DNA of 64,000 nt from Eledone cirrhosa (lineage: Eukaryota): the NCBI GenBank assembly GCA_964016885.1, contig OZ024743.1:182218001-182282000 (forward strand). The letters run 5' to 3'. Positions 1 through 37,787 of this stretch are shown here, one piece after another. Positions within the stretch are counted from its first letter, which is position 1; the number at the start of each line of letters is the position of its first letter. Both the position numbers and the translations under genes were made by a program. The notes beneath the pieces are model-generated. The model saw only the letters and a program-made list of their open reading frames with translations, was not told where the DNA came from and made no database searches.

Positions 1-272
1 TTAACTTTAAGACCTTTTGATTCTAGGCCATGCTTCCAAGTTTGGAATTTCTTCTCTAATTTTGCCATACAGAAGTTCCTTGGGCAGCCAGTCTTAAACT
101 CTTCTGTTAGAGCCTGCAGGAGAATATTAAACAGAAGATGGGCACCTACCTGCACGCTAAATTCTTTACTATAGTCATTGTTAATTCTCATCTAGCTGAC
201 TGTTCCTCAAAAATGGCTTGTACTGCCCTTACAAACCATTTGTCTACACCTAGTTTTCTAAGAGCCCACTAT
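1..272 (-). mobile_element. Degraded RTE-clade LINE fragment (RT region)
   Basis: Aligns by eye, with deletions, to 6050-6372 of the RTE copy in this window (e.g. ccttttgattctaggcc; acacctagttttctaagagccca). Confidence 0.85.
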
Positions 273-5192: not shown

Positions 5193-6413
5193 TTAGGTAA
5201 CGCGGGTCTTCTCTGTTACTGAGTACCGCCAAAGGTCTCGGTCCAGTGACATTGTCTTGGAGAGGTGTAAGTGTGTGAGGTCGGAATTTATCAGCTCATC
5301 CCAGGTTTTTCTGGGTCTGCCTACTCCGTGGCTACCATCTAACTTTATTGCCCTGCACTTTGTTATACAGCTGTCGTCTTTCATGCGCATCACATGACCA
5401 TACCAACGTAGCCTTCTCTCGAGTAAACAACATCTGATCCCTCTTATTTCTAATTTTTTCCTTAGTTCATTTATGCTTTGCCGTTCGCGTATATTACTAT
5501 TACACATCCAGCGGAGCATGCAAGCTTCGTTCCTCTCTAGTCTGCGTATATCCTCTGCACACAATGCCCAGGTCTCACTGCCATGCAACATTGCTGTTCG
5601 TATGCAGGCATCATACAACCTGCCTTTCACTTTTAGGGAGAACCCTTTAGCGGCTAATAGTGGTATAAGCTCTCTGAACTTTTTCCATCCAGTTCTGACT
5701 CTAGCTACTGTACTTTCGGAGCACCCTCCCCCACTGCTGATTTTGTCACCCAGGTAACGGAAGCTGTCCACTATTTCTATAGAACCCTCTGCGCAGTTGA
5801 AAGAGCTAGTATTTTGTGGGCACTTGCTGCTACTTATTGCACCAGAGCACCGGCCACATGTAAAATCTGTGTTCTTAGTTAGCTTACCTGTGATCCCACT
5901 ACATCTTTTATGCACCCATACTTTGCATTTGGGACATAAAATGGAGTTTCTACCTACGCCTTTCCTACACACTGAGCATGGCCATTTCCCGGAAGGGACC
6001 GGCGCCTTATTTTCTTTCCTACAAACTAGAACTTTAGTCTTAGCCATGTTAATTTTAAGGCCTTTTGATTCTAGGCCGTGCTTCCATGTTTGGAATTTCT
6101 TCTCTAGCTCGGCCATTGATTCAGCTATGAGCGTTAGGTCATCTGCGTATAGGAGTTCCCATGGGCAGCCGGTCTTGAACTCCTCTGTTATAGCCTGAAG
6201 AGCAATAATGAATAGTAGCGGGCTAAGAACAGAGCCCTGATGGACACCAACTTTTACGCTAAACTCTTCACTATATTCGTTGTTAATTCTAACCTTGCTC
6301 ACTGTTTCTTTATACATGGCTTGTATAGCTCTCACAAGCCATTCGTCAACACCTAGTTTTCTAAGAGCCCACCAGATAATGGAACGGGGGACTCTGTCGA
6401 AGGCTTTCTCCAA
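5193..6413 (-). pseudogene. RTE reverse transcriptase ORF remnant with inserted C4HC3 (PHD-type) finger
   Basis: 406-aa ORF with YADD; CSVC-x10-CPKC-x4-HKRC-x14-CGRC at 5847-5978. Confidence 0.9.
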
Positions 6414-7642
6414 GTCGACAAAGGCTAAGTATAGGGGTTTACTTTTAGCTAGGTACTTCTCCTGTAGTTGTCATACAATGAAAAGAGCGTCTGTGGTACT
6501 TTTGCCTGACACAAACCCAAACTGCATTTCATCTAGATCGATTCTCTCTCTGATTAGTTGCACTATTACTTTTTCCGTGACCTTCATGACCTGGTCGATT
6601 AATTTAATCCCTCTATAGTTACTCCTATCTAGGGCGTCTCCTTTACCCTTGCAACAGTTAATGATGATGCTGCTACGCCAGTCCTTCGGAACAACCCCAT
6701 TCTGTATGACTTGGTTTACTATCCGGGTGACCATGGTGTGTCCCACCGTTCCAGAGGCCTTCAGCATCTCAGCAACTATTTCCGAAGGCCCAGCCGCCTT
6801 ACCCGTCTTCATATCTTTGATCGCCTTACTTATTATACTACCTTCAACTAACACTGCTGGTCCCTCTATTGGATCGATCTGGGGGAGACTATCCTTCTCC
6901 CATTTATTCTCCTCATTTAGTAGCCTCTCGTAGTGACACTTCTAAGCAACCTTCTTATCAGCGTCAGTGATGGCGAGTACGCCATCATCATTTAGTACAC
7001 ACTTCTCCCCAACAATATCACGGTTTTCCTTGACACATTGCCTAGCAATCCTGAACACCTCACGTTTTTGGTCCTCGCGTTGTAGAACATGCTTGAACTT
7101 TCTTTCCTCTGCTTCCCTTCTTGCAAAGTACACTTGTCTCCTAGCTTCCTTCCTGGCCACTTGATAGTCTTCTCTACTTCCCCCATCCCGCCATATTTTC
7201 CAAGCCTGCTTTTTGGCCTTAATCGACTCCTCCACCTTACTGTTCCACCACCATGTTACTCTCCTCCTGCCTATAGGCCTGCTCCGGCCACAGACTTCGT
7301 CTGCCGCCATCAGCAGGTTTGCTTTCAGGAATTCCCACTGTCCCTCTATATTGTCCGACTCTAAATGCTCTTCCTTACTGTCGAAAGCGTCAAGTAATAT
7401 GCTTTGAAATTTATTTCTGGCTGTGGGGTCCTTTAACTTCCATATTTTTCTCCTGAGGATAGTCCTCTTCTGCTGTCGAGTACGTCTCGTCCTGACTATG
7501 AGGTCGCTAATTATCAGTCTATGTTGGGAGGTGCATTCTTCATGGGGGAGGGATTTAGTGTTTACAACAGTCACTCTGTCACGTCTTCTGGTAAGGATAT
7601 AATCTACCTGGCTGGTATGTTCCCCTGATCTGTAGGTGATCA

Positions 7643-10310: not shown

Positions 10311-10743
10311 GGGATTACCCTCGATAGCCGGGGTTATATCCACTATGCGTCTGCTACACCTATCCCTATTCCCTTTACTCGACCCTCATTCCATTTTACG
10401 TTCAATGGTTGTTTTATCAGTTCAATAAACTAGGAGAAAATAGAATACATTTAAATACTTCTACCATGGTTTCGTCCGCATTTTGAGATTTCCAATAATT
10501 ATGTAATAATTATGTAACTCGAGCATCGGATTCATCGGGAGATTTGCTCTGATCTAGACACTAAATTTTCCAAAGTGATCGCGCCAAGAATTCATTCAAA
10601 ATGGCTAAGAATCGTGACGTAGTAGCGGTCAGGTTGGAAGGGGTGTGGTAGTTGCTTACGGCTGGTGGTTTTTTTGCTAGAAAGCACAGCACAATACAGC
10701 AAAATTTGTATCTCAACCTAATGGGAGATTATTACATATAAAA

Positions 10744-10749
<6 letters not shown>

Positions 10750-10783
<34 letters not shown>
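10750..10783. repeat. (TA)n microsatellite at the end of the Penelope-type repeat
   Basis: Direct reading. Confidence 0.9.
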
Positions 10784-10789
<6 letters not shown>

Positions 10790-10833
10790 AAGTTAGATAA
10801 AAGTCAAATGATTAAAATTTAGCTTCGTTTATT

Positions 10834-10888
10834 ACTGCTATATATATTTCAGTGACAGCCATCTTTGGCTGTGACCTCTTCAGGCAGT
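10834..10888 (-). ncRNA. Minimal type I hammerhead ribozyme (copy 1)
   Basis: Reverse complement of the motif at 12200-12254. Confidence 0.8.
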
Positions 10889-12199
10889 TTGAATTAGTAT
10901 GGTATAGACAAGTACATATGTTGTTTAGGTGTATGATATTGTCAATACTCTGATATGCCCAGTTCCTTGTTGGGTTGTTAATTCACTGGGGAACTGGAGT
11001 CATATGAATTCAAACAAACGAATTTTAGTGTCACAGGTCCCCTTCTCCTCTCATTGGTCAGTTATTAGTGTTGTCATTGTTGGAGTTAGCTTAAAAATTG
11101 ATAAAATGGTAGAAGGGACAAGGTGTTGAAGGAACAAAATATCAAAAAATGTGTCAAACTTCCCATTGTTCAGTTCTGAGAGCATTCCTCAGTCAGAAGT
11201 CTATAGAATTCTTTCTGGGGTGAGGCTCCCTGTAGTGTTTATGTCTGCTATTGTTCAGTACATTTGACCTCCACCATTATTTTGGTACTGTTGTTGTTGT
11301 AGTGGTCAGCTTATATCTTGCTGCTGCTAACAATTTAGAAGTATTCAGTTTGTGTTTTCTCTTCATCCCACCCGCCACCATCGTAGTGGTGGTGGCGGGG
11401 GGGGGGGGGTTATTTCATGTATATGAAGAAATATAAGGCAATAAATGAAGAAAACAGATGATAAATAAATAATATAATAAAATAAAATAATTAATATAAT
11501 TTGTGTAATTTGAAAATAAATAAATAAATAGAGAATAAAGAATAAAGAGTAAATGAGAGATTGGTGAAAAAGTAATGATAATGTATATGGAGAAGTGAGA
11601 AATAATGTAGGATAAAGTGTGTGTGTGTGTGTGCTATAACCAATCTCAAGGTCAGAATATGTTGGATAGATTGGTATGATACAAGATGTTAAGATGAGAT
11701 ATTCAATGTGTTTGTGTTATAATCTATCTCAACTTAAAATAAATATAAATATAAGGTTATACAGTGAAGAGGGCAGAAAACAAATAACAAATTAATATAG
11801 AGAAATCAAGATTTAAGATTGGAACTTTAAAGTCAGAAATCTGGTAAATTAAAAGTGTTAAGCCTCACCCCAGAAAGAATTCTATAGACTTCTGACTGAG
11901 GAATGCTCTCAGAACTGAACAATGGGAAGTTTGACACATTTTTTGATATTTTGTTCCTTCAACACCTTGTCCCTTCTACCATTTTATCAATTTTTAAGCT
12001 AACTCCAACAATGACAACACTAATAACTGACCAATGAGAGGAGAAGGGGACCTGTGACACTAAAATTCGTTTGTTTGAATTCATATGACTCCAGTTCCCC
12101 AGTGAATTAACAACCCAACAAGGAACTGGGCATATCAGAGTATTGACAATATCATACACCTAAACAACATATGTACTTGTCTATACCATACTAATTCAA

Positions 12200-12254
12200 A
12201 CTGCCTGAAGAGGTCACAGCCAAAGATGGCTGTCACTGAAATATATATAGCAGT
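12200..12254 (+). ncRNA. Minimal type I hammerhead ribozyme (copy 2)
   Basis: Stem I ACUGC/GCAGU; core CUGAAGA; stem II GGUCACAGCCA-AAGA-UGGCUGUCACU; GAAA; palindromic short stem III UAUAUA; AUA cleavage triplet. Confidence 0.82.
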
Positions 12255-12439
12255 AATAAACGAAGCTAAATTTTAATCATTTGACTTTTATTTAACTTTA
12301 TTTTACACTACTCCGGAGTAACCAAACCAACCTGCGCACTTCGTCGAGTGCTCCAGCCTGCATACTGAGGTGTTGGTATACAACCAACATAAACTCAAAA
12401 TCTCTATATATATATATATATATACATACATACATATAC

Positions 12440-12849
12440 GTGTTTTGCAACGGGTCACTTTGTGGCTCAATGAAAATTTAATAAATTAAATAATCAGAGC
12501 TGTATATCATAAAACATGTCTATAATTATTGGAAATCTCAAAATGTGGACGAGACCATGGTAGAGGTATTTAAATGTATTTTATTTTCTCCTAGTTTATT
12601 TTACACCTAATTCTGTTTAATTGACTGTATCTGGTCGATTACGCTGTCGAAATATTCGATAAATATTCCGCTACGGCCGACGCGAAGGGCTAGTTTCGGT
12701 TATTTGTTGGAGATTTCTTCATAGAAGCCTCATTCTTATAGCCTGGTCTATTCGATTTTTTATATAGTTAATTATGCTAATTGGGAGACAAAATGGTATA
12801 TATTTTATCTTGTGATTCTATAGACATGTTTTATGATATATAGCTCTGA
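12440..12849. mobile_element. MITE-like element fragment with inverted repeats
   Basis: tcagagctgtatatcataaaacatgtctata (~12493-12524) is inverted to tatagacatgttttatgatatatagctctga (~12819-12849). Internal 12522-12600 is also an inverted copy of 10424-10502. Confidence 0.5.
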
Positions 12850-13062
12850 GGAGGCAAAGGTTAGGTGGACATGCTCACCAACATCCAGAGTTGACATTGC
12901 ACTCAGTGATCCTTTGGGAGCCCCTACATGGACACACTAGAAGAGGAAGACCAAGGTTATGTTGATGCCCTAAGGACAGACACTGGTCTGTTGGAGACGC
13001 AGGACATGGCAGCGATAATGAGGGACAAAGACCGCTGGAGAGAACTGGTCCATGGAGCTCGG
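12849..13062 (+). mobile_element. 3' fragment of a second RTE-like LINE family
   Basis: Translates with indels to [44 protein letters not shown]...[11 protein letters not shown], a typical RTE C-terminus. Confidence 0.7.
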
Positions 13063-13088
13063 GAATTTTACTCGCCTTAGAAAAAGAA

Positions 13089-13108
13089 ATATATATATAT
13101 GTATATAT

Positions 13109-13140
<32 letters not shown>

Positions 13141-13283
13141 GTATATGTATATATATATATATGTATATGTATGTATATATATATGTATATGTATGTATAT
13201 ATATATGTATATGTATATATATATATGTATATGTATATATATATATATGTATATGTATATATATATATATGTATATGTATATA

Positions 13284-13318
<35 letters not shown>

Positions 13319-13420
13319 ATATATATATGTATATGTATATATATATATATGTATATGTATATATATATATATGTATATGTATATATATATATGTATATGT
13401 ATATATATATATATGTATAT
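13089..13420. repeat. (TATATG)n/(TA)n microsatellite
   Basis: Direct reading; the YI/CI ORFs are artefacts. Confidence 0.95.
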
Positions 13421-13465
13421 AAAGTTAAATAAAAGTCAAATGATTAAAATTTAGCTTCGTTTATT

Positions 13466-13520
13466 ACTGCTATATATATTTCAGTGACAGCCATCTTTGG
13501 CTGTGACCTCTTCAGGCAGT
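13466..13520 (-). ncRNA. Minimal type I hammerhead ribozyme (copy 3)
   Basis: Identical to copy 1. Confidence 0.8.
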
Positions 13521-13881
13521 TTGAATTAGTATGGTATAGACAAGTACATATGTTGTTTAGGTGTATGATATTGTAATGAAAATAACAGTCTGAATATAAA
13601 TTTATCTAAGGTAACATGGAGTAAATAATTATTTTGAAGAAATTTATATAAGCATTATTTCCCATGTGTAATGAGTTAGACGCACATGACAGCAGAATTG
13701 GGAAACGGCTGGTTTACGATAATGTAGAATGTACATGGATAGAATATTAAGGGGAACTGGAGTCATATGACTCCAGTTCCCCAGTGAATTAACAACCCAA
13801 CAAGGAACTGGGCATATCAGAGTATTGACAATATCATACACCTAAACAACATATGTACTTGTCTATACCATACTAATTCAA

Positions 13882-13936
13882 ACTGCCTGAAGAGGTCACA
13901 GCCAAAGATGGCTGTCACTGAAATATATATAGCAGT
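13882..13936 (+). ncRNA. Minimal type I hammerhead ribozyme (copy 4)
   Basis: Identical to copy 2. Confidence 0.8.
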
Positions 13937-14083
13937 AATAAACGAAGCTAAATTTTAATCATTTGACTTTTATTTAACTTTATTTTACACTACTCCGGAG
14001 TAACCAAACCAACCTGCGCACTTCGTCGAGTGCTCCAGCCTGCATACTGAGGTGTTGGTATACAACCAACATAAACTCAAAAT

Positions 14084-16501
<2,418 letters not shown>

Positions 16502-16701
16502 NNNNNNNNNNNNNNNNNNNNNNNNNNNNNNNNNNNNNNNNNNNNNNNNNNNNNNNNNNNNNNNNNNNNNNNNNNNNNNNNNNNNNNNNNNNNNNNNNNN
16601 NNNNNNNNNNNNNNNNNNNNNNNNNNNNNNNNNNNNNNNNNNNNNNNNNNNNNNNNNNNNNNNNNNNNNNNNNNNNNNNNNNNNNNNNNNNNNNNNNNNN
16701 N
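16502..16701. other. Assembly gap (200 N)
   Basis: Run of n. Confidence 1.
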
Positions 16702-18096: not shown

Positions 18097-18397
18097 TATG
18101 TGGCTTGATGTATTTCCGTTGATCAATGTAAACAGTTGAATTTCTATGTTATGGTGATGATGATGATGGTGAGTCACACAACATAGTCAGGCCATAACAG
18201 TAACTGCAGAAACTTGTCTATCAAAGATGTTTTAATAACATATTATTAGAGTTATGGTTGTTATTGTTGTATAGCATGGGGACAGCCCTGCTTGAACAGA
18301 CTTATGATCAAAGGGGTTCTCCTTATGACCATCCTATTTAGGACATAATATGTTTAGGACTAATATTTAGACATAATATATTTAGGATTTATATTGA

Positions 18398-21374
18398 GAC
18401 ATAATATAGATATGACCATCATGTCTAATATTTAGGACATAATATAGATATGACCATCCTGTCTAATATTTAGGACATAATATAGATATGACCATCCTAG
18501 CTAATATTTAGGACATAATATAGATATGACCATCTTGTCTAATATTTAGGACATAATATAGATATGACCATCCTGTCTAATATTTAGGACATAATATAGA
18601 TATGACCATCCTGTCTAATATTTAGGACATAATATAGATATGACCATCCTGTCTAATATTTAGGACATAATATAGATATGACCATCCTAGCTAATATTTA
18701 GGACATAATATAGATATGACCATCCTGTCTAATATTTAGGACATAATATAGATATGACCATCCTGTCTAATATTGAGACATAATATAGATATGACCATCC
18801 TGTCTAATATTGAGACATAATATAGATATGACCATCCTGTCTAATATTGAGACATAATATAGATATGACCATCCTGTCTAATATTGAGACATAATATAGA
18901 TATGACCATCCTGTCTAATATTTAGGACATAATATAGATATGACCATCCTGTCTAATATTGAGACATAATATAGATATGACCATCCTGTCTAATATTTAG
19001 GACATAATATAGATATGACCATCCTGTCTAATATTTAGGACATAATATAGATATGACCATCCTGTCTAATATTGAGACATAATATAGATATGACCATCCT
19101 GTCTGATATTTAGGATATAATATAGATATGACCATCCTGTCTAATATTGAGACATAATATAGATATGACCATCCTGTCTAATATTGAGACATAATATAGA
19201 TATGACCATCCTGTCTAATATTTAGGACATAATATAGATATGACCATCCTGTCTAATATTGAGACATAATATAGATATGACCATCCTGTCTAATATTGAG
19301 ACATAATATAGATATGACCATCCTGTTTAATATTTAGGACATAATATAGATATGACCATCCTGTCTAATATTTAGGACATAATATAGATATGACCACCCT
19401 GTCTAATATTTAGGACATAATATAGATATGACCATCCTGTCTAATATTTAGGACATAATATAGATATGACCATCCTGTCTAATATTGAGACATAATATAG
19501 ATATGACCATCCTGTCTAATATTTAGGACATAATATAGATATGACCATCCTGTCTAATATTGAGACATAATATAGATATGACCATCCTGTCTAATATTTA
19601 GGACATAATATAGATATGACCATCCTGTCTAATATTTAGGACATAATATAGATATGACCATCCTGTCTAATATTGAGACATAATATAGATATGACCATCC
19701 TGTCTAATATTTAGGATATAATATAGATATGAGCATCCTGTCTAATATTGAGACATAATATAGATATGACCATCCTGTCTAATATTTAGGATATAATATA
19801 GATATGACCATCCTGTCTAATATTGAGACATACTATAGATATGACCATCCTGTCTAATATTGAGACATAATATAGATATGACCATCCTGTCTAATATTTA
19901 GGACATAATATAGATATGACCATCCTGTCTAATATTGAGACATAATATAGATATGACCATCCTGTCTAATATTGAGACATAATATAGATATGACCATCCT
20001 GTCTAATATTTAGGACATAATATAGATATGACCATCCTGTCTAATATTTAGGACATAATATAGATATGACCATCCTGTCTAATATTGAGACATAATATAG
20101 ATATGACCATCCTGTCTAATATTTAGGATATAATATAGATATGACCATCCTGTCTAATATTGAGACATAATATAGATATGACCATCCTGTCTAATATTTA
20201 GGACATAATATAGATATGACCATCCTGTCTAATATTTAGGACATAATATAGATATGACCATCCTGTCTAATATTTAGGACATAATATAGATATGACCATC
20301 CTGTCTAATATTGAGACATAATATAGATATGACCATCCTGTCTAATATTTAGGACATAATATAGATATGACCATCCTGTCTAATATTTAGGACATAATAT
20401 AGATATGACCAACCTGTCTAATATTTAGGACATAATATAGATATGACCATCCTGTCTAATATTGAGACATAATATAGATATGACCATCCTGTCTAATATT
20501 TAGGACATAATATAGATATGACCATCCTGTCTAATATTTAGGACATAATATAGATATGACCATCCTGTCTAATATTTAGGACATAATATAGATATTACCA
20601 TCCTGTCTAATATTTAGGACATAATATTGATATGACCATCCTGTCTAATATTGAGACATAATATAGATATGACCATCCTGTCTAATATTGAGATATAATA
20701 TAGATATGACCATCCTGTCTAATATTTAGGACATAATATAGATATGACCATCCTGTCTAATATTGAGACATAATATAGATATGACCATCCTGTCTAATAT
20801 TTAGGACATAATATAGATATGACCATCCTGTCTAATATTGAGACATAATATAGATATGACCATCCTGTCTAATATTGAGACATAATATAGATATGACCAT
20901 CCTGTCTAATATTTAGGACATAATATAGATATGACCATCCTGTCTAATATTTAGGACATAATATAGATATGACCATCCTAGCTAATATTTAGGACATAAT
21001 ATAGATATGACCATCCTGTCTAATATTTAGGACATAATATAGATATGACCATCCTGTCTAATATTTAGGACATAATATAGATATGACCATCCTGTCTAAT
21101 ATTGTGACATAATATAGATATGACCATCCTGTCTAATATTTAGGACATAATATAGATATGACCATCCTGTCTAATATTTAGGACATAATATAGATATGAC
21201 CATCCTAGCTAATATTTAGGACATAATATAGATATGACCATCCTGTCTAATATTTAGGACATAATATAGATATGACCATCCTGTCTAATATTTAGGACAT
21301 AATATAGATATGACCATCCTGTCTAATATTTAGGACATAATATAGATATGACCATCCTAGCTAATATTTAGGAC
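18398..21374. repeat. 38/37-bp minisatellite, ~79 units
   Basis: Unit aatatttaggacataatatagatatgaccatcctgtct (38 bp) is interspersed with aatattgagacataat... (37 bp). Confidence 0.97.
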
Positions 21375-22002
21375 TCAATATATGTTGGACTAGATTATTT
21401 AATGTCTCCTTATTCAAAGATGATAGTATGTAATATTTTAGAGTGACTTGGCAGCTATTTCCAGCAGGTTGAATCCTAATCAGAGGTTGCGCCATCAGCT
21501 CATAGATTGATATAATGTAGTTAGGATGTGGTAATAATAGGTAACATATTATTACAAGGAGCATTAATACACTAACTAGAAATTATTATATTATACAAAC
21601 AATATTATATCATTTAACTTATCTTGTCTTAATTACTCGGAACATATGGGAGAGAACTGGATAATCATCATCATCATCATCCGTTGCTCGGGATTCTAAA
21701 CATAGATTGGCATGTATATCCCTCCTTTCTGAAACAGTACAGAGAAGTACGGAATACCTCGGCCTGGGGATGGTCTACATTTTGTGCTTATAAAAAAAAT
21801 TTGTTGTAGATTACTACCGGTTTAACTTAACTGGGTGTCTGAGAGTAAAATGTTCAACCCACAAAAGATAGTCGATAGTAAAAAGGCATTCGACAAACCG
21901 AACATGTATTTGTTGTGCTATGGTACAATGAAAGCAATAGTTACAGAGCAGTAAGCATGTGGGATTGCAGTGGTGGAGAGCATGAAGGAATTTAGTTGGA
22001 TA

Positions 22003-28913: not shown

Positions 28914-30576
28914 ATGAATTCAACCAAAATGAACTCTTCCACACCGAACACCACTGACGCCACCACCACCACCACCACAACTGAAACTAAAATTAACAAT
29001 AGCAAAAATAACAATAACAACAACAGCAACAATGAAATTAAGAAAATTACCCTGAGTTTTGCCAGAGTAGCAAAAACGTGCGAAGCGATCCAGGTAACTC
29101 AGGAGGAATTAGAAGAAGCCAAAGGAATGGTAAAGAAAGATGGGTACAGGGTCAGCCTCACCCCCACCTAATAAAATGGAGCAACGTCGCCTATGCACCG
29201 TGTCTTATTGGACAATTAACATAAAATCCCGCCGAGTGGAACGGGCATCTGAGTCCCAAATCCAAAAAGCTTTGGGACATGTGTGGGCAAAAAAACACCA
29301 CATCAGACGTGGGCAGAAAAATGGAACCGTGGACGTGTTCTTTGAAACACCACAGGAGGCCAGAGAACGCTCCATGGCCCCATTAAGAAGTGACGACTTC
29401 ACACTCGTCCCAAGCTATTGTGGCCAGAGACTTGTGAAGATCAGGGTGACCCACGTTCCACCAGCCATCGAAATTCCCTGGCTAATGGCTGCCATCCTTG
29501 CCGGCATCGAGGCCAACACCAAGATAATTGAAATAGCGAAAGAAAAGCAGGAGAACTGGTCCGGATCTGGGATGAGGCTCCGGATCCAAGCGGACCATAA
29601 AAGCATTGAGGAGATTCCAGAAGTAATAGACCTCACTGACGGCAGCCACCTCACCGTAATCGTCGAGGGCAGAAGACCTAGATGTGTCGTTTGTGGTGAA
29701 GGAACCCACCTAAGGTTGAGGCCACCTCTCTTACCCACCCCAGTGACTCAACCATCAACACCACCAGCAGCAGATATGGCAGCAACAACTGTAGCAGCAA
29801 CAACAGAAGCAACTGTAACAGCAACAACCCCAGCAACAGTAGCAAAACCAACACCACCACCACCCAACGCGCCAGAACTAGCACCAGCGCCTACACTATC
29901 CACCACGCCACAACCAAAACCAACGCCTGTGGAGGATTTTCCACTCCCCGGCTTATTGCAACTGGAGACAGATTGTGACGACGAGGAGTGGGAAACGGTA
30001 TCAGGAAAAAAGAAAAAAAGAAGCCAAAAAAGAAAAAAATTCTCTTCCTTCGCCCTCCAAAAACAAAATACAGAGGGAAACAAATAAATTATCAAACAAA
30101 AAAGTTAGGACAGATATGCCACCATCCACAACAGCATCACCAACCCCATCACCACAAACACCAACACCATCACCATTATTAACCCCAACACCACCATCAC
30201 CAACACCACAAAAGTCACCAAAAAGCGTAACAGAAACAAACCCACAACAAACGCAAACAAAACAAAACAACCAAAACGATACACACTACACAGCATTAAA
30301 TTTGAACAACAACCAATTATTACACTACATGCAACACAACACCAGCATCACAGAAAAAGACTATACAACAACCCAAAAGTCACACCACCTCCACACATAC
30401 AAATCACTCGCATCACACAGAAAACGTACATGACACTAAAACAAAAATTCCCCAAAGACATCGGAGACTTCCGACAAACACTCTCCAGGAGGATTTATAA
30501 GGACATCCTTCTGGAGGAGGCCACAAGCAGTGAAAAGGATGGACAAACCATCCTTCCTCTACGAGAAGTAAGGTAA
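28914..30576 (+). pseudogene. Tx1-like ORF1 (gag-like), frameshifted
   Basis: ORF pieces 28914-29171, 29140-30087 and 29975-30433 are homologous to ORF1 pieces of the second copy. Confidence 0.75.
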
Positions 30577-30610
30577 GTGGTCTTTCCCATCTTTTCCACT
30601 CCATTTCAAC

Positions 30611-33600
30611 ATGACCTCATTCAGAATAGGCAGCATAAATGCGCGTGGCTTGGGGTCGTCATGGAAGCAGGGCCACCTGCTCAACGACCTCAGGTCACTA
30701 AATATAGATGTAGTGGCCATCAGCGAGACCAGAATCTCCGAAGCACGGGCCCTCGCACCGATCTTAGGCGGCTACGATGTGTACGCATCTCCCAGCCGTC
30801 CGGGATCAGAGGGGGGGGGGGAGTTGCTGTGCTTTTTCGGAGAGGTTTGGATCTTGCCATACGGGCCATCTTCCTGGACCCAGAAGATAAGTTGGTGTTG
30901 CTGGACGTGACCAGCGGAGACGGGCAAGCTTTCAGGTTAGTGGCCGCCTATGCCCCGACAGGAGCAGGGCGGCCTGATTTCTTCCGGCGTCTGGAGACCT
31001 TTCTTGGAACGTCCCGCTCTTTAGTGTTAGTGGACGACTGGAACGGGATCTTAGATGCACGCTGGGACTGTGTGGGATTAGCGGATAGGGGAGGAGGGTG
31101 CAAGAGCCTCACCAACCTGCTCAGGCGTTTTGAACTGTCTGACAGGTACCGATTGGATTTCCCGAATGTGCCAATGTGGACTTGGACAAATCGTATAGGG
31201 TCATCCAGATCATATCTAGATAGAGTATTTTGTAGAGAAATAGATAGGTCTAGCATAGGCTGTCCACAATTCAAGATAGTCAGCTACACGGACCACAAAT
31301 TCGTGATCTGTGTGCTTGACTTAGATAGGCTTCATAGACGAGGACCCGGCTACTGGAAGCTAAACGCGTCTTACCAGCGCGCAAGGCCTACAGAGACCGG
31401 ATTAGTGAACTAGTTAAGCGGGCGTTGACGGGGGCCATCGTCAACAACAAGTGGTGATTTGCTCTGAAAAGAGCAATTAGAATAGAGTCCATTAGGTTTA
31501 GTAAGGCTTTAGCATTAGAGAAAAATAGAGCAGAGGGAGAATTAGTTAGAAAATTAGACGAGGCGCCTAGCAAAGGCATCGTGACCGACGTACTTGCAGC
31601 GAAATTGGCCCTTGACCAATTCTTCAAGGCAAAGCACGAAGGCTGCGTTGTCAGAGCTAGGGTGCGTGTAATCAGACACGAGGGGACGAAAGCCGTTCAA
31701 TGGGCCCGAGTGGCGGAGGCGCGTCGTGGCAACAAAGCCACGATCCGGTCTTTGATGGACCTCGACGGGCGCATGCTACTCGATCCCGGGCAAATGTGTG
31801 AAGCTTTTCAGTGACACTTTGCTCAGTTGTTCGGGGGCAGCGGCAGGCCGGATCGAGGGATGGACTTTAGTGCCTACCTCGACGGACTGCCGCGGCTCTC
31901 GGCCACTGAGGCGGAGTGTTGCGAAAAGCCGATAACAGCCGCTGAAGTGCGGGAGGCAATGACTGGCTGCACAAGGGGTAAATCGCCTGGTTTGGATGGT
32001 TTGCCCTATGAACTTTACGTACAGATGCCAGACTTGTTCGGAGGCCTCTTGGCGGACGTCTACTGCAACTGGCAACAGAACGGGAGAATTCCCAGCTCTG
32101 TGAGCCGAGGAGTGGTGGCGCTGCTGAGAAAGGATCCAAACAAGGGGGATAACATAGATAATTTTAGGCCCACAACTCTGCTAAACACAGAGTTCAAGAT
32201 TTTGGCCAAGGTGCTAGTAAAGAGGTTGGCGCTTGTCGTTGGTGGTCTGGTGGGAGAGGCGCAGACATGTGCCATTCCCGACAGATCCATCCACGACAAC
32301 CTCCACCTCATGCGATACATCATAGAGTGAGTAGCTAAGGAACCTGGCACAGGTGGGTCCTTGATCAATTTAGATCAGTCGAAAGCTTTCGATAGGGTCG
32401 ACCATCGTTACCTAGCGACAGTCCTGAGGGCGGCTGGATTTGGGCCCGTCTTCAAAGGCTGGATCGCTGCCATGCACAGCGACATCTGCTCTGTGGTGAG
32501 AGTGAACGGTCACCTTTCGGAACCGTTCAACATCATGCGCTCGGTCCGCCAAGGATGCCCCTCTTGTCCCTCTTGTACGTATTGACTCTCGAGCCATTAC
32601 TGCACAAACTGGAGACGTTGAGGGGCGTCCCGCGCGAACTAGGATGCGGAAGATTTGTGTCAGCATATGCGGACGATGTCACCGTAGTGGTGTCGAACGC
32701 CAAACACATCGAGGCGATCGGCACTACACTAAGAGAATACAAAGCGGTGACAGGAGCAATGATCAACCAGGAAAAGTCAGTGGGCCTGCAGCTCGGCACC
32801 TGCAGAGGCAGGTCCATGCCGTCCAACAGCATCGTCAGACACTGGACGGACGGACCGGTTAAATTGCTAGGGGTCTGGTTCGGTCCGGACCTCCAGACGG
32901 ACAAAAACTGGGACGAGGTGACGAGCAGAGTGGCTTCTCTCACCCAGAAATGGGCGGAGAGGAAGCTATCCCTGAAAGGTCGAGCGGAGGTGGCTAATGC
33001 GTACATCGCGTCTGTCATCTACTACCGCCTGACTATCGTACCTTGTCCCAAGCCCCGCCTGACTGCGCTGGAGCGTTTGCTCTTTCGCTTTTTGTGGAAG
33101 GGACGCGCTCCGATGGTCAGGCGGTCCATCTGCTGTCAACACCCGCTACATGGAGGGCTGGGAATGCTGTGGCAGATGATGCGCAGACACGCGCTCAGGC
33201 TACGACATCTCCACCTCTTCCTCGACGGTGATCAGGTGTGGTCGCCGTTTGCTAGACACGTATTTCTCCAGCTCGTTTCCTTGACGGAGCTGCAGTCCTG
33301 GGTCAAGCGAAGACCGAGAGGGAGCGCCTGGAGACTGGAATGTCTTCAGGCGCTCAGCTCGGCGTTCTATAGAGGATTAGTGGAGGGGAAGAGCAACGAC
33401 GTACTTGGGGAAACTCTAGGCGTCGACGAAAATCAACTAGCCAATCTCTTCGGAAGAACTTTCGGGCCGGGACCTATGGACAACTTCCAGAAATCTCTGG
33501 CCTTGCAGTGCTACCGAGGAGCCTTGCCAGTTCGGGATAAACTCTACAGGCATGGAGGTGCCGTCAGCCGGGCATGTCCGTGATGCGCGCAGGGCGACGA

Positions 33601-34639: not shown

Positions 34640-37465
34640 TCATTTTTAAGGATATTGTTACAGATTTAAAATTACCAAATATTTCTAACACAAACAACAC
34701 CAACAATAATACCAACAACAACACCATCAATAACAACAGCAACAACAAAAATAACAGCGGTAAATTCGAGAATGACAATAATAAAAATAACAGCGGTAAG
34801 GTCGAGAACGACAATAACAATGACAATAACAACATCCACAACAACAATAATAGTAGGAACAGTATCAACAAAAACAACAATAATAACAACAGTCACAATA
34901 ACAGTAACAACAGCAACAGTATCAACGAAAACAACAGTACCAACGAAAACATCAACAATGATATCGATACCTGTAACAGCGATCTCAGCACCAACAACAA
35001 GACCAGTAGTGGCAGCAATAGTGGTGCTGCTGAAAAAGGGACCACTTCTTTTGCAGGTGTCGCCCAAAATATCGAAACAGTGTTAGTCACAGAGGAGGAG
35101 ATGGCAGTTGCAAGGGCCATGGTGACAAGAAGTGCCAATAGAGTCTCCCTGAAACCTCTACCCGATTTTTTCAAGGACCAGCAGCTACGGACGGTGATTT
35201 ACCGCACCGTAAGCAAAATGTCACATCGGGTGGAGAGAGCCACGGAGGCTCAAATCCAAAAGGCCTTGGGGTGCGTCTGGGTGCGCAAAACCCACATCAC
35301 CCGAGGCAGAAAGTACGCCACAGTAGACGTACTTTTCGCTACCCCCAAGAAGCAAAGTTTCACTCTTTGGAAACCCTAAAGAGTGAGGAGATAGTCTTGG
35401 TGCCCTCTTACTGCAGGCAGGAAATTGTGAGGGTCAAAGTGACCCAGGTCCCACCCGACGTGCCCATACCTTGGCTGGCCGCATCTGTTCTTGCTGGAAT
35501 CGAGGGCAGGACGACCATGCTGCAAGTAGAGAAAATAGGGAGAGAGAACTGGTCAGGTATAGGCATGCAAATGCTTATACAAACTGACCAGGAATGTATC
35601 GACGCTATCTAGATATCATAGACATCGAGGAAGGACTCCAACTCCCTATAAGCGTGGAAGGAAGACGGCCAAAATGTTATCTCTGTGGGTCAAAGGGTCA
35701 CCTCAGGGCCTTTTGTCCGCAGAAGACAGCGAAGAAGAAGGCCCTTCTCCTTCCAATACCTGGTCTGCTGCTACCGAGAGCAGGGCAGGCAACAAACACA
35801 GAAGCCCCTTCCACGGTGAGTAGGAGGGCAACGTCCGTGGCACCTGTACCAAGACCACGGACAACTAAAGCAGCAGCATCAGTGGCGGCAACACCAATAG
35901 CTACATTTGCAGTAGCTGCACCAGCAACAAAATTGCCGGAGAGGGCTCCACTACTACCACCAACAGCCGTGGAGCACATACCCCTCCCAGACGCCACGGA
36001 ATCCGACATGGAATTTGAGGCGGGAGTGAAGTGGCAAACAGTCTGCCACAAAAACAAAAAAGGAAAAACCCCTTAGCTTTACCCTCCAAAAGCGAAGGCA
36101 CACGCACGAAGAGGGGTAAAGGCAGCAAGGAGACTTGCAGAAACACCACCACCATCACCACCACAAGCACCACCGCCAACAACAACCACACCACCACCAG
36201 CATCACCAAAAACACCAACAACGCAAACACAAAACAAACACCAAACAGCAACAAGAAGAAAACAGCAACAAAATCACCCTCCCCAACAAAAAGTACACAG
36301 CCATAAACATGGCAAAAAAAGAACTCATACAAATATAAAGCAGCACACAGACATCACAGAAAAAACTACTACACCCCACCAACACCAAGAACTCTCCTGA
36401 CAAATATAAACATCATTGAAATCTCAATAGAACAGTACAAACTTTTAAAACAAAAATTCCCCAATGCAGTTGGAGACTTCAGAGGGTCGGTTACCAAGAG
36501 GATATACACTGACATCCCCTTGGAAACACCCATGACCAGCCAAAGGGATGGTTCTACTGTCCCTTCACCGCACGATCAAGGTAAGTGACCCTTTCTCACT
36601 TGCCCCGTTTCTCATCCAACATGGCCGTACTCAGAACAGGCAGTATAAATGCATGTGGCCTGGGGTCATCTTGGAAGCAGGGTCACCTGCTCAACGACCT
36701 CAGGTCACTAAACTTAGATGTGGTGGCCATCAGCGAGACCAGAATCTCCGAAGCACGATCTTTGGTGGCTACGATGTATACGCATCTCCCAGCCGTCCAG
36801 GATCAGGGGGAGAGGTTGCCGTCCTTTTTCGGAGAGGCTTGGATCTCGCGATACGGGCCATCTTTCTAGACCCAGAAGATAAGTCAGTGGTGCTGGACGA
36901 GACCGGCAGCGAAGGCAATGCTTTCAGGCTAGTAGCCGTCTACGCCCCAACTGGGGCAGGACGGCCAGATTTCTTCAGACGTCTAGAAACCTTTCTTGGA
37001 ACGTCCCGCTCTTTAGTGTTAGTGGGCAACTGGAACGGTATCTTGGATGCATGCTGGGATTGTGTGGGGCTAGTGGATAGGGGAGGAGGGTGCAAGAGCC
37101 TCACCAACCTGCTCAGACGTTTTGAACTGTCTGACAGGTATCAACTGGATCACCCGAATGTGCCAATGTGGACATGGACAAACTGCATCGGGTCATCCAG
37201 AGCGTATCTCGATAGGGTATTCTGCAGAGAACTAGATAAGGCTAGTATAAGTTGTCCACAATTTAAAATAGTCGACTACACAGACCACAAATTTGTGATC
37301 TGTGAGATCGACATAGACAGACTTCATAGACAAAGGCCCGGTTACTGGAAGCTGAACGCGTCTTTCCCGGCGCGCAAAGCCTACAGAGACCGGATTAGCG
37401 TATTAGTTAAGCGGGCGTTGACAGGAGCTGTCGTCAACAACAGGTGGTGGTCCGCCCTGAAAAGG
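34640..37465 (+). mobile_element. Second Tx1/L1-clade LINE copy, 3'-truncated after the endonuclease
   Basis: Asn-rich N-terminus; ORF1 pieces with an intact CCHC knuckle CYLCGSKGHLRAFC; APE from 36621 very similar to the first copy. Ends at (CT)n ~37473. Confidence 0.9.
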
Positions 37466-37471
37466 ACAGAA

Positions 37472-37510
<39 letters not shown>

Positions 37511-37787
37511 TATCTGTCTTCCTCACTCGATCAGTTTAGTTGCATTATAAGTATGAGAAAGGTCAGGGGAGACAAGTCACAGTGTCCCCCTTCTGATTAC
37601 AAATGGCAACATGATATCTCAACAATGTATGCTTGTGTCTGAATGAACCAACCACTTGTAATACGCAAATCATATGAAGAAACTCAGAGTAGCAGTACAA
37701 ATATGTATATATATATATATAGTGAAAGAGTGAAGAATAACATGGTTGGCTGTACAAAAAGGGTTTGGAATATATATGTATATAAAT

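What the first reader, a model, noticed from the sequence alone, without database searches (positions are those of the whole stretch)
10784..14083. Four identical minimal hammerhead ribozymes in two inverted Penelope-type pLTR pairs embedded in (TA)n
Seen: the 55-nt motif ACUGC-CUGAAGA-(stem II, 11 positions with one mismatch, AAGA loop)-GAAA-UAUAUAUA-GCAGU occurs at 10834(-), 12200(+), 13466(-) and 13882(+), each followed by AATAAA, and all four repeats end in (TA)n. Known: Penelope-like elements carry minimal type I hammerheads with palindromic stem III that are proposed to cleave as dimers, and they often leave inverted pLTRs. Notable here are the AUA triplet, the pure (UA)n stem III, which has the same sequence as the tracts the element sits in, and the long stem II. 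Inference: a young (TA)n-targeting PLE family whose read-through RNA from either strand would hold two ribozymes plus long dsRNA arms.
Basis: partly seen in the sequence, partly recalled or inferred. Interest (0 to 1): 0.72.

Follow-up and report, generated by a model that had tools for sequence, protein, structure and literature searches.

The report
Head-to-head Hydra retrotransposon ends with hammerheads
The four identical motifs are the tail ends of two mirror-image, cut-short insertions of a very abundant Penelope-type jumping gene that lands in TA repeats; each is a predicted self-cutting hammerhead RNA of a known kind, and where sister copies start and stop suggests the element is likely copied from two RNA forms, a linear transcript and possibly a circle.

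Summary
Observation confirmed: four exact 55-nt hammerhead-shaped motifs. They are 3' ends of two head-to-head insertions of a young Hydra-clade Penelope-like element (3,638 exact motifs genome-wide; a natural 892-aa RT plus GIY-YIG ORF found; unit 4.1 kb). The 633-nt 'spacer' is element 3' UTR. AUA, the 8-nt palindromic stem III and the long stem II differ from published Hydra hammerheads but are shared by many families here. A (UA)n stem is not needed for TA targeting. Copy ends are informative: two fixed 3' ends 97 nt apart, paired long-with-short in 59 of 63 inversions; a fixed 5' end at an initiator-like TCA, repeated in two other families; no pile-up at the predicted cut. That 5' stop holds for 23 of 46 terminal copies but 0 of 25 ORF-linked repeats, and none of 67 ORF starts lies in a full tandem dimer. 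This fits a linear template plus a ribozyme-made circle (inferred; no RNA data). This scan had already noted the clade, paired ends, twin hairpins, RNA-start pile-up and a possible circle on other DNA of this genome. New member of a known kind.

The parts
10783..11859 (-). Pair 1, left arm: 5'-truncated 3' UTR plus hammerhead, from about -970 to the short 3' end (+106; +1 = first base of the 55-nt motif)
   Evidence: 98.9% to the natural full copy L127 over 1077 nt; matches many loci over its whole length
11861..12402 (+). Pair 1, right arm: -339 to the long 3' end (+203), joined head-to-head to the left arm
   Evidence: 100% to L127 over 542 nt; 445-nt inverted repeat
10834..10888 (-). Predicted type I hammerhead, copy 1
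12200..12254 (+). Predicted type I hammerhead, copy 2; predicted cut after AUA at 12249/12250
   Evidence: cleavage untested
13466..13520 (-). Predicted type I hammerhead, copy 3
13882..13936 (+). Predicted type I hammerhead, copy 4
12081..12088 (+). Initiator-like TCATATGA; the A at 12083 (-117) is the family's fixed 5' end, likely the transcription start
   Evidence: same TCA position in two other families; no RNA data
12306..12402 (+). 97-nt one-sided tail between the two 3' ends
12310..12350 (+). Bulged hairpin 1, starting about 5 nt after the short 3' end; its twin starts at +210, about 6 nt after the long end, and exists only in ORF-linked copies
   Evidence: lead from earlier scan notes
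13419..13577 (-). Pair 2, left arm: -58 to +102
13578..13750 (.). 173-nt filler that replaces about 41 nt of the left arm of pair 2
   Evidence: no match in the fetched loci
13751..13782 (.). 32-nt palindromic head-to-head junction of pair 2, centred on the -117 motif
   Evidence: same junction recurs in sister loci and as a loose end in short-read contigs
13763..14084 (+). Pair 2, right arm: -119 to +203
   Evidence: 100% to L127 over 322 nt
10750..10784 (.). (TA)n target tract, left of pair 1; the right half is 12403-12440
   Evidence: an uninterrupted homologous tract is at L245:448-505
13089..13421 (.). TA-rich array left of pair 2; 14085-16501 lies to its right

Best explanation
These are the 5'-truncated 3' ends of two separate head-to-head insertions of a young Hydra-clade Penelope-like retrotransposon into TA repeats, each likely made by priming reverse transcription on both target strands, one at each of two fixed internal start sites. 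Shown: parent ORF, TA flanks, two 3' ends 97 nt apart, long-with-short pairing, fixed 5' end at -117. Inferred: the GIY-YIG domain nicks (TA)n; RT starts 5-7 nt before one of two bulged hairpins; the two cDNAs are joined head-to-head. Short copies likely come from the 5' end of the uncut linear transcript that starts at -117. The hammerhead is predicted to be unable to close stem III alone and to cut only when the two pLTR copies of a full transcript pair through the 8-nt palindrome; the cut monomer, if ligated, would give a 4.1-kb circle that templates the long, more-than-unit copies. The copies in this window are ORF-less products with no shown function.
For: Parent and clade; the model's top fold match is telomerase RT; Hydra motifs as in PMC8557442 section 11. 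3' ends: 88 of 92 copies fall in two classes; 93 of 95 long ends run into TA or CT; 59 of 63 partners of a long end have the short end. Both-strand extension and two internal RT starts that define the tail are shown in vitro for another PLE (PMC11167929). 5' stop: 66 of 170 terminal copies that reach -110 stop within -110..-126, 35 of the 66 without a symmetric palindromic junction; two other 8-bp palindromes stop only 7 of 216 and 4 of 238; sister families stop at the A of TTCA, 6 of 22 (non-palindromic) and 15 of 27. Two templates: 23 of 46 versus 0 of 25, p=3e-6, stable over four windows; no upstream repeat among 67 ORF starts reaches a full unit (longest -2493 of -3922) though 13 fetched elements hold more than one unit and end at the long end; 5' and 3' repeats differ at 146 of 13,623 sites, 4 recurring. 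Dimer: closing stem III costs 3.4 kcal/mol in the monomer; the palindrome is kept through double changes.
Against: No RNA data: cleavage, start site and circle are all untested. Rfam finds no hammerhead. The (UA)4 duplex is weak, -3.2 kcal/mol. No excess of 5' ends at the cut site (10 stops, rate ratio 1.3, p=0.27): cut linear RNA is not a visible template, and this is equally what an inactive ribozyme gives. In the one PLE tested in vitro, hammerhead mutants still insert and no reads end at the cut site (PMC11167929). Donor tandem dimers may be lost, unassembled or missed by an exact 20-mer (259 first-look candidates against 67 exact matches). The 15 hammerheads were picked by a descriptor that demands pairing. 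Ten of 39 arm pairs differ at a diagnostic site.
Confidence: 0.6

Rival explanations
1. Same element and dual priming, but one linear template only: RT jumps from the RNA 5' end at -117 to the 3' pLTR (strong-stop transfer), or long copies come from tandem donors now lost; the hammerhead is a passenger or acts on RNA stability.
For: No cut-site footprint; hammerhead dispensable in vitro in PAc; Naiads proliferate without hammerheads; a jump also gives identical repeats.
Against: A jump predicts that the second arrival at -117 stops about as often as the first; seen 0 of 25, with the motif intact in 21 of 25. Hammerhead architecture is kept across many families.
Confidence: 0.25
2. The -117 pile-up is a DNA-level joining hotspot or self-priming at a palindrome, as proposed for rotifer Penelopes, and not an RNA start.
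For: 31 of 66 stops are symmetric junctions at the 8-bp palindrome; PMC3846280 reports palindromes at inverted junctions and proposes self-priming on an antisense template.
Against: 35 of 66 stops are asymmetric or solo; other palindromes reached earlier do not stop copies; family B stops at a non-palindromic TTCA and family C has filler letters between two arms that both start at the A; the two arms of one insertion have different 3' ends.
Confidence: 0.08
3. One reading: the (UA)n stem III matches the target, so the cut RNA end pairs with (TA)n and primes or guides insertion.
For: Sequence identity of stem III and target; many families here share it.
Against: 0 of 92 copies with a whole motif end near the cut; ends lie 55 and 152 nt further on (a sample that cannot show ends inside the motif). 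A family with a GC palindrome targets TA equally; 26 of 26 published Hydra rows have other stems yet the clade targets TA.
Confidence: 0.03
4. The short palindromic units are a separate non-autonomous lineage (retrozyme or MITE-like) that multiplies by itself.
For: ORF starts are rare, 67 against 2,321 tails; many pairs have the same spacing.
Against: Short copies share the three common haplotypes with long and ORF-linked copies; they lack hairpin 2 yet often end at the long end; no tandem arrays.
Confidence: 0.04

Closest known systems
Hydra clade of C-terminal EN+ Penelope-like elements, e.g. Hydra-1_Obim (Craig et al. 2021, PMC8557442; seen: passages, section 11, supplement parts 1-2 and search passages of S4, S7 and the alignment figure)
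   Same: RWK, DKT, CxCX5C linker, C-terminal GIY-YIG, CxxC and CxH, (TA)n insertion, 3' hammerhead, inverted truncated copies, one-sided tail.
   Different: A different family (N-terminus and hammerhead differ from Hydra-1_Obim, by eye). Unit 4.1 kb against 1.1-3.0 kb listed; two disordered inserts in the ORF and a 1.3-kb 3' UTR; tail 97 nt against 30-40; AUA triplet, perfect 8-nt palindrome and 11-position stem II against GUH in 26 of 26 listed rows and stems of 3-7 bp.
PLE hammerheads with small palindromic helix III (Cervera and de la Pena 2014, PMC4209133; seen: parts 1-2 of 4 of the text)
   Same: Type I, short helix I, long helix II, palindromic helix III, proposed dimers, opposite-strand pairs 100-700 bp apart, proposed circle as template for more-than-unit copies.
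   Different: U15.2-A16.2 pair and G-U closure of stem II; here the circle idea gets indirect genomic support from copy ends.
Poseidon PAc of Anolis (Frangieh et al. 2024, PMC11167929; seen: parts 1-2 of 4)
   Same: Both target strands extended, two internal RT starts bracket the tail, AT-rich target, uncut RNA as template.
   Different: In PAc the starts lie inside the ORF and about 30-40 nt apart; here they lie in the 5' UTR, 97 nt apart, each before a twin hairpin.
Drosophila virilis Penelope internal promoter (Schostak et al. 2008, PMC2377424; passages) and Adineta Penelopes (PMC3846280; passages)
   Same: Internal TATA-less promoter with initiator in the pLTR; inverted junctions with palindromes; low-complexity inserts in the ORF.
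   Different: Those papers, in the passages seen, do not report a pile-up of copy 5' ends at the initiator or its absence from ORF-linked repeats.
Non-LTR retrozymes (10.64898/2026.07.22.740005; part 1 of 5 seen)
   Same: Type I hammerhead in short non-coding PLE-derived repeats.
   Different: Retrozymes are head-to-tail tandem arrays; these are head-to-head truncations of a coding element.

Membership tests
EN+ Penelope-like element | Single ORF with telomerase-like RT and GIY-YIG endonuclease | tested here: met
   892-aa open frame L127:2519-5197; GIY-YIG E=7e-4, below Pfam's cut-off, on the isolated segment; model pLDDT 78, top Foldseek match TERT 3du5, E=4e-9. Pfam alone does not name the whole protein.
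EN+ Penelope-like element | Partial tandems (pLTRs), inverted 5'-truncated copies, one-sided tail | tested here: met
Hydra clade | RWK motif and DKG changed to DKT | tested here: met
   both in the ORF and conserved in alignment A1
Hydra clade | CxCX5C linker before a C-terminal GIY-YIG | tested here: met
   residues near 752-760
Hydra clade | [quoted passage not shown] | tested here: met
   read by eye from alignment A1 against PMC8557442 section 11
Hydra clade | Insertion into (TA)n; hammerhead near the 3' end | tested here: met
Hydra clade | Placement in the RT phylogeny with the published reference set | not tested
   the published reference proteins were compared by eye only
Neptune clade | CX2-5CxxC linker, DKG and CCHH | tested here: not met
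   linker is CxCX5C, motif is DKT
Naiad/Chlamys | N-terminal endonuclease, no canonical hammerhead | tested here: not met
   endonuclease is C-terminal
Type I hammerhead ribozyme | CUGANGA and GAAA core, A15.1-U16.1, NUH triplet, three helices | tested here: met
   double-sided changes in 9 of 12 pairs over 15 relatives (descriptor-selected); AUA occurs in a natural hammerhead, ELVd(+) (PMC1636495 abstract)
Type I hammerhead ribozyme | Match to an Rfam hammerhead model | tested here: inconclusive
   no match; whether Rfam's models cover this PLE variant was not checked
Type I hammerhead ribozyme | Self-cleavage | not testable with these tools
   needs a bench assay
Non-LTR retrozyme | Head-to-tail tandem, non-coding units each with a hammerhead | tested here: not met
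   same-strand neighbours within 5.2 kb: 3 among the first 100 listed matches, at 1.7-4.1 kb, parts of coding elements

The most novel reading that the evidence does not exclude
Copy ends record two RNA templates of one Penelope-like element: a linear transcript that starts at the initiator and yields the short mirror-image insertions, and a unit-length circle, cut out by paired hammerheads, that yields the long more-than-unit copies; a dimeric RT reads twin hairpins to start one strand at each. This would give the PLE hammerhead a job in vivo and explain pLTR, tail and inversion in one cycle.
Probability: 0.35. Interest if true: 0.72.

Novelty: new member of a known kind. Interest (0 to 1): 0.4.

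Why it matters
The locus itself is ordinary repeat debris. The family matters because PMC8557442 and PMC11167929 both leave open what the PLE hammerhead does and how tandem and inverted copies form. Thousands of near-identical copies give exact, testable coordinates: RNA start (-117), cut (+50/+51), two RT starts (+106, +203), twin hairpins. The contrast between terminal and ORF-linked repeats makes the old circle proposal (PMC4209133) directly testable by one divergent RT-PCR.

Tried and rejected
Neptune as clade (my first guess from recall): rejected on motifs. Cut-site footprint: 7 of 40 ORF-linked 5' ends near +41..+64 did not hold in 67 plus 95 copies. DNA search of the genome with 12146-12402 returned nothing because common words are skipped. 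Rfam: only microRNA models on TA arrays, nothing on the arm. Pfam and PDB sequence searches did not name the RT. No RNA holder listed; three contig runs of one sample, kind unknown, show loose ends at 12081 and 12305 and a depth step near 12086, but depth there is no copy number. The 5'-end column was spoiled by alignments running through the mirror arm and was redone (one search failed, one search used). No spliced copies were seen in the junction lists. The Lunse et al. dimer paper is not held; its claim is taken from the review PMC6765202 (passages). Paper searches.

Full report
Observation. The 55-nt motif stands, letter for letter, at the four places named, each followed by AATAAA, and a general type I hammerhead descriptor finds nothing else in the window. 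The arms are 10783-11227/11861-12305 (445 nt) and 13419-13574/13828-13983. The genome holds 3,638 exact copies, the reversed control none. Rfam has no hammerhead match. Coordinates below count from the first base of the motif (+1 = 12200).

The parent. Long loci show (TA)n, an inverted truncated copy, a direct truncated copy, an ORF, a 1.3-kb 3' UTR, the motif, (TA)n. One of 20 fetched ORF-start loci has an unbroken 892-codon frame (L127:2519-5197); the unit is 4,125 nt. Pfam names only the isolated GIY-YIG segment, weakly; the predicted structure (pLDDT 78) matches telomerase RT best. With 29 of 47 homologues it shares RWK, DKT, CxCX5C, CxxC and CxH, the marks of the Hydra clade, for which (TA)n insertion and hammerheads are published (PMC8557442). 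By eye it is not Hydra-1_Obim. The window's arms match L127 at 98.9-100%, so the 'spacer' 11228-11860 is 3' UTR and both pairs are head-to-head fusions. Pair 1 sits in a TA tract inside an older repeat whose uninterrupted form is in L245.

The hammerhead. The monomer folds stems I and II; closing stem III costs 3.4 kcal/mol, and two copies can pair over 8 nt, weakly (-3.2). This is the dimer design described for PLEs (PMC4209133; review PMC6765202). The 26 Hydra rows of Craig's File S2 all have G before the UH and stems II of 3-7 bp, so AUA and the long stem are a variant; AUA is known from the ELVd(+) hammerhead, where it was the slowest of four triplets (PMC1636495, abstract). The variant is common in this genome: a stricter descriptor gave 34 further hits from other families in 1.18 Mb of partly overlapping loci and 0 in a shuffled copy. 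Over 15 relatives, 9 of 12 pairs show double changes, including inside the palindrome; slid controls pair 33-55% of cells against 98% (the set was chosen for pairing, so this is partly built in). Two sisters, B and C, have 6,199 and 9,568 exact motif matches and Hydra-type ORFs. C has a GC-containing palindrome and still ends in TA, so stem III does not set the target.

3' ends. Of 92 copies examined (the first 100 listed, 8 not yet fetched), 54 end at +102..108, 34 at +202..212, 2 run into the ORF, 2 end elsewhere. Of 95 long-ended copies 70 run into TA, 23 into CT, 2 neither; 63 have a head-to-head partner and in 59 it has the short end. Arms share diagnostic variants in 29 of 39 pairs, against about 16 expected. 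This is what priming on both strands from two internal RT starts would leave, as shown in vitro for PAc. Earlier scan notes pointed to twin hairpins; here they start at +111 and +210, in B and C likewise, and by eye in two published Hydra consensus ends. Hairpin 2 exists only where a repeat runs into the ORF.

5' ends. In a wider set of 245 terminal copies (all fetched loci, not a random sample), 66 of the 170 that reach -110 stop within 17 nt, modes -117 and -119; 31 are symmetric junctions at the palindrome, 23 asymmetric, 12 solo; two other 8-bp palindromes stop 7 of 216 and 4 of 238. B stops at the A of a non-palindromic TTCA (6 of 22), C at the A of TTCA too (15 of 27) (30 copies each). 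I read this as the RNA start at an initiator, as in the internal promoter of Penelope (PMC2377424); this is inference. Short copies share haplotypes with coding copies.

Two templates. The -117 stop holds for 23 of 46 terminal copies from the start of contig C1 but for 0 of 25 repeats that lie upstream of an ORF (all 67 exact ORF starts; p=3e-6), although 21 of the 25 keep the motif. No upstream repeat is a whole unit (longest -2493 of -3922), yet 13 fetched elements hold more than one unit and end at +199..203, which under the hairpin model needs hairpin 2 behind a whole unit. Their two repeats differ at 146 of 13,623 sites in 26 elements, 4 changes recurring, while 176 subfamily variants are shared by both: one template sequence copied twice, about 0.5% decay per copy. 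A ligated unit-length circle explains all of this, as proposed in PMC4209133; a template jump or lost tandem donors are not excluded. No RNA run was listed.

Novelty. Clade, TA targeting, hammerhead, inversion and tail are published. In searches I found no paper on the initiator pile-up or its absence from ORF-linked repeats; subscription papers, the Lunse paper and unread parts of the papers above may hold it. This scan had already noted the clade, paired ends, twin hairpins, an RNA-start pile-up and a possible circle on other DNA of this genome; those notes are not independent support. Verdict: new member of a known kind, interest 0.40; confidence about 0.95 in the identity, 0.8 in dual priming and the start site, 0.4 in the circle.

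Noticed in passing
window 10424-10749 and 12441-12600; L245:364-1064: Pair 1 is nested in a TA tract of an older repeat with a degenerate hammerhead of the CCATGG stem III type (about 10450-10545, minus strand; a half core near 12540-12575, plus). L245 holds the uninterrupted tract.
   Followed up: partly
window 12402-12404 and sister loci: 34 of 97 scored long ends carry two or more CT units before the TA (24 more could not be scored); none was seen at short ends. The empty-site homologue of pair 1 has no CT. Possible RT stutter at the start, telomerase-like, or insertion into compound microsatellites.
   Followed up: partly
L261-L290 (family B): A GTATGT splice-donor-like motif lies about 43 nt after the TTCA start, close to the 46-nt distance of the Penelope intron. 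No equally good donor in the window's family.
   Followed up: no
L127:2519-5197, residues 479-616 and 695-746: Two disordered low-complexity inserts in the ORF, absent from most homologues; reminiscent of the N-rich inserts in rotifer Penelopes.
   Followed up: no
window 12083-12134: A predicted hairpin covers the first 50 nt after the -117 start; several short upstream ORFs lie between it and the main ATG at +258.
   Followed up: no
L005, L020, L043 and others: Short-stemmed type I hammerheads with a 4-nt palindrome recur at 470-530 nt spacing, retrozyme-like arrays.
   Followed up: no
window 40449-64000: 78-bp satellite, about 302 copies; also a 38-bp array at 18391-21382 and an N gap at 16502-16701.
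   Followed up: no
window 5196-6470 (-), 29134-33580 (+), 36536-37639 (+): Broken LINE-type ORF fragments by their look; not searched against families.
   Followed up: no
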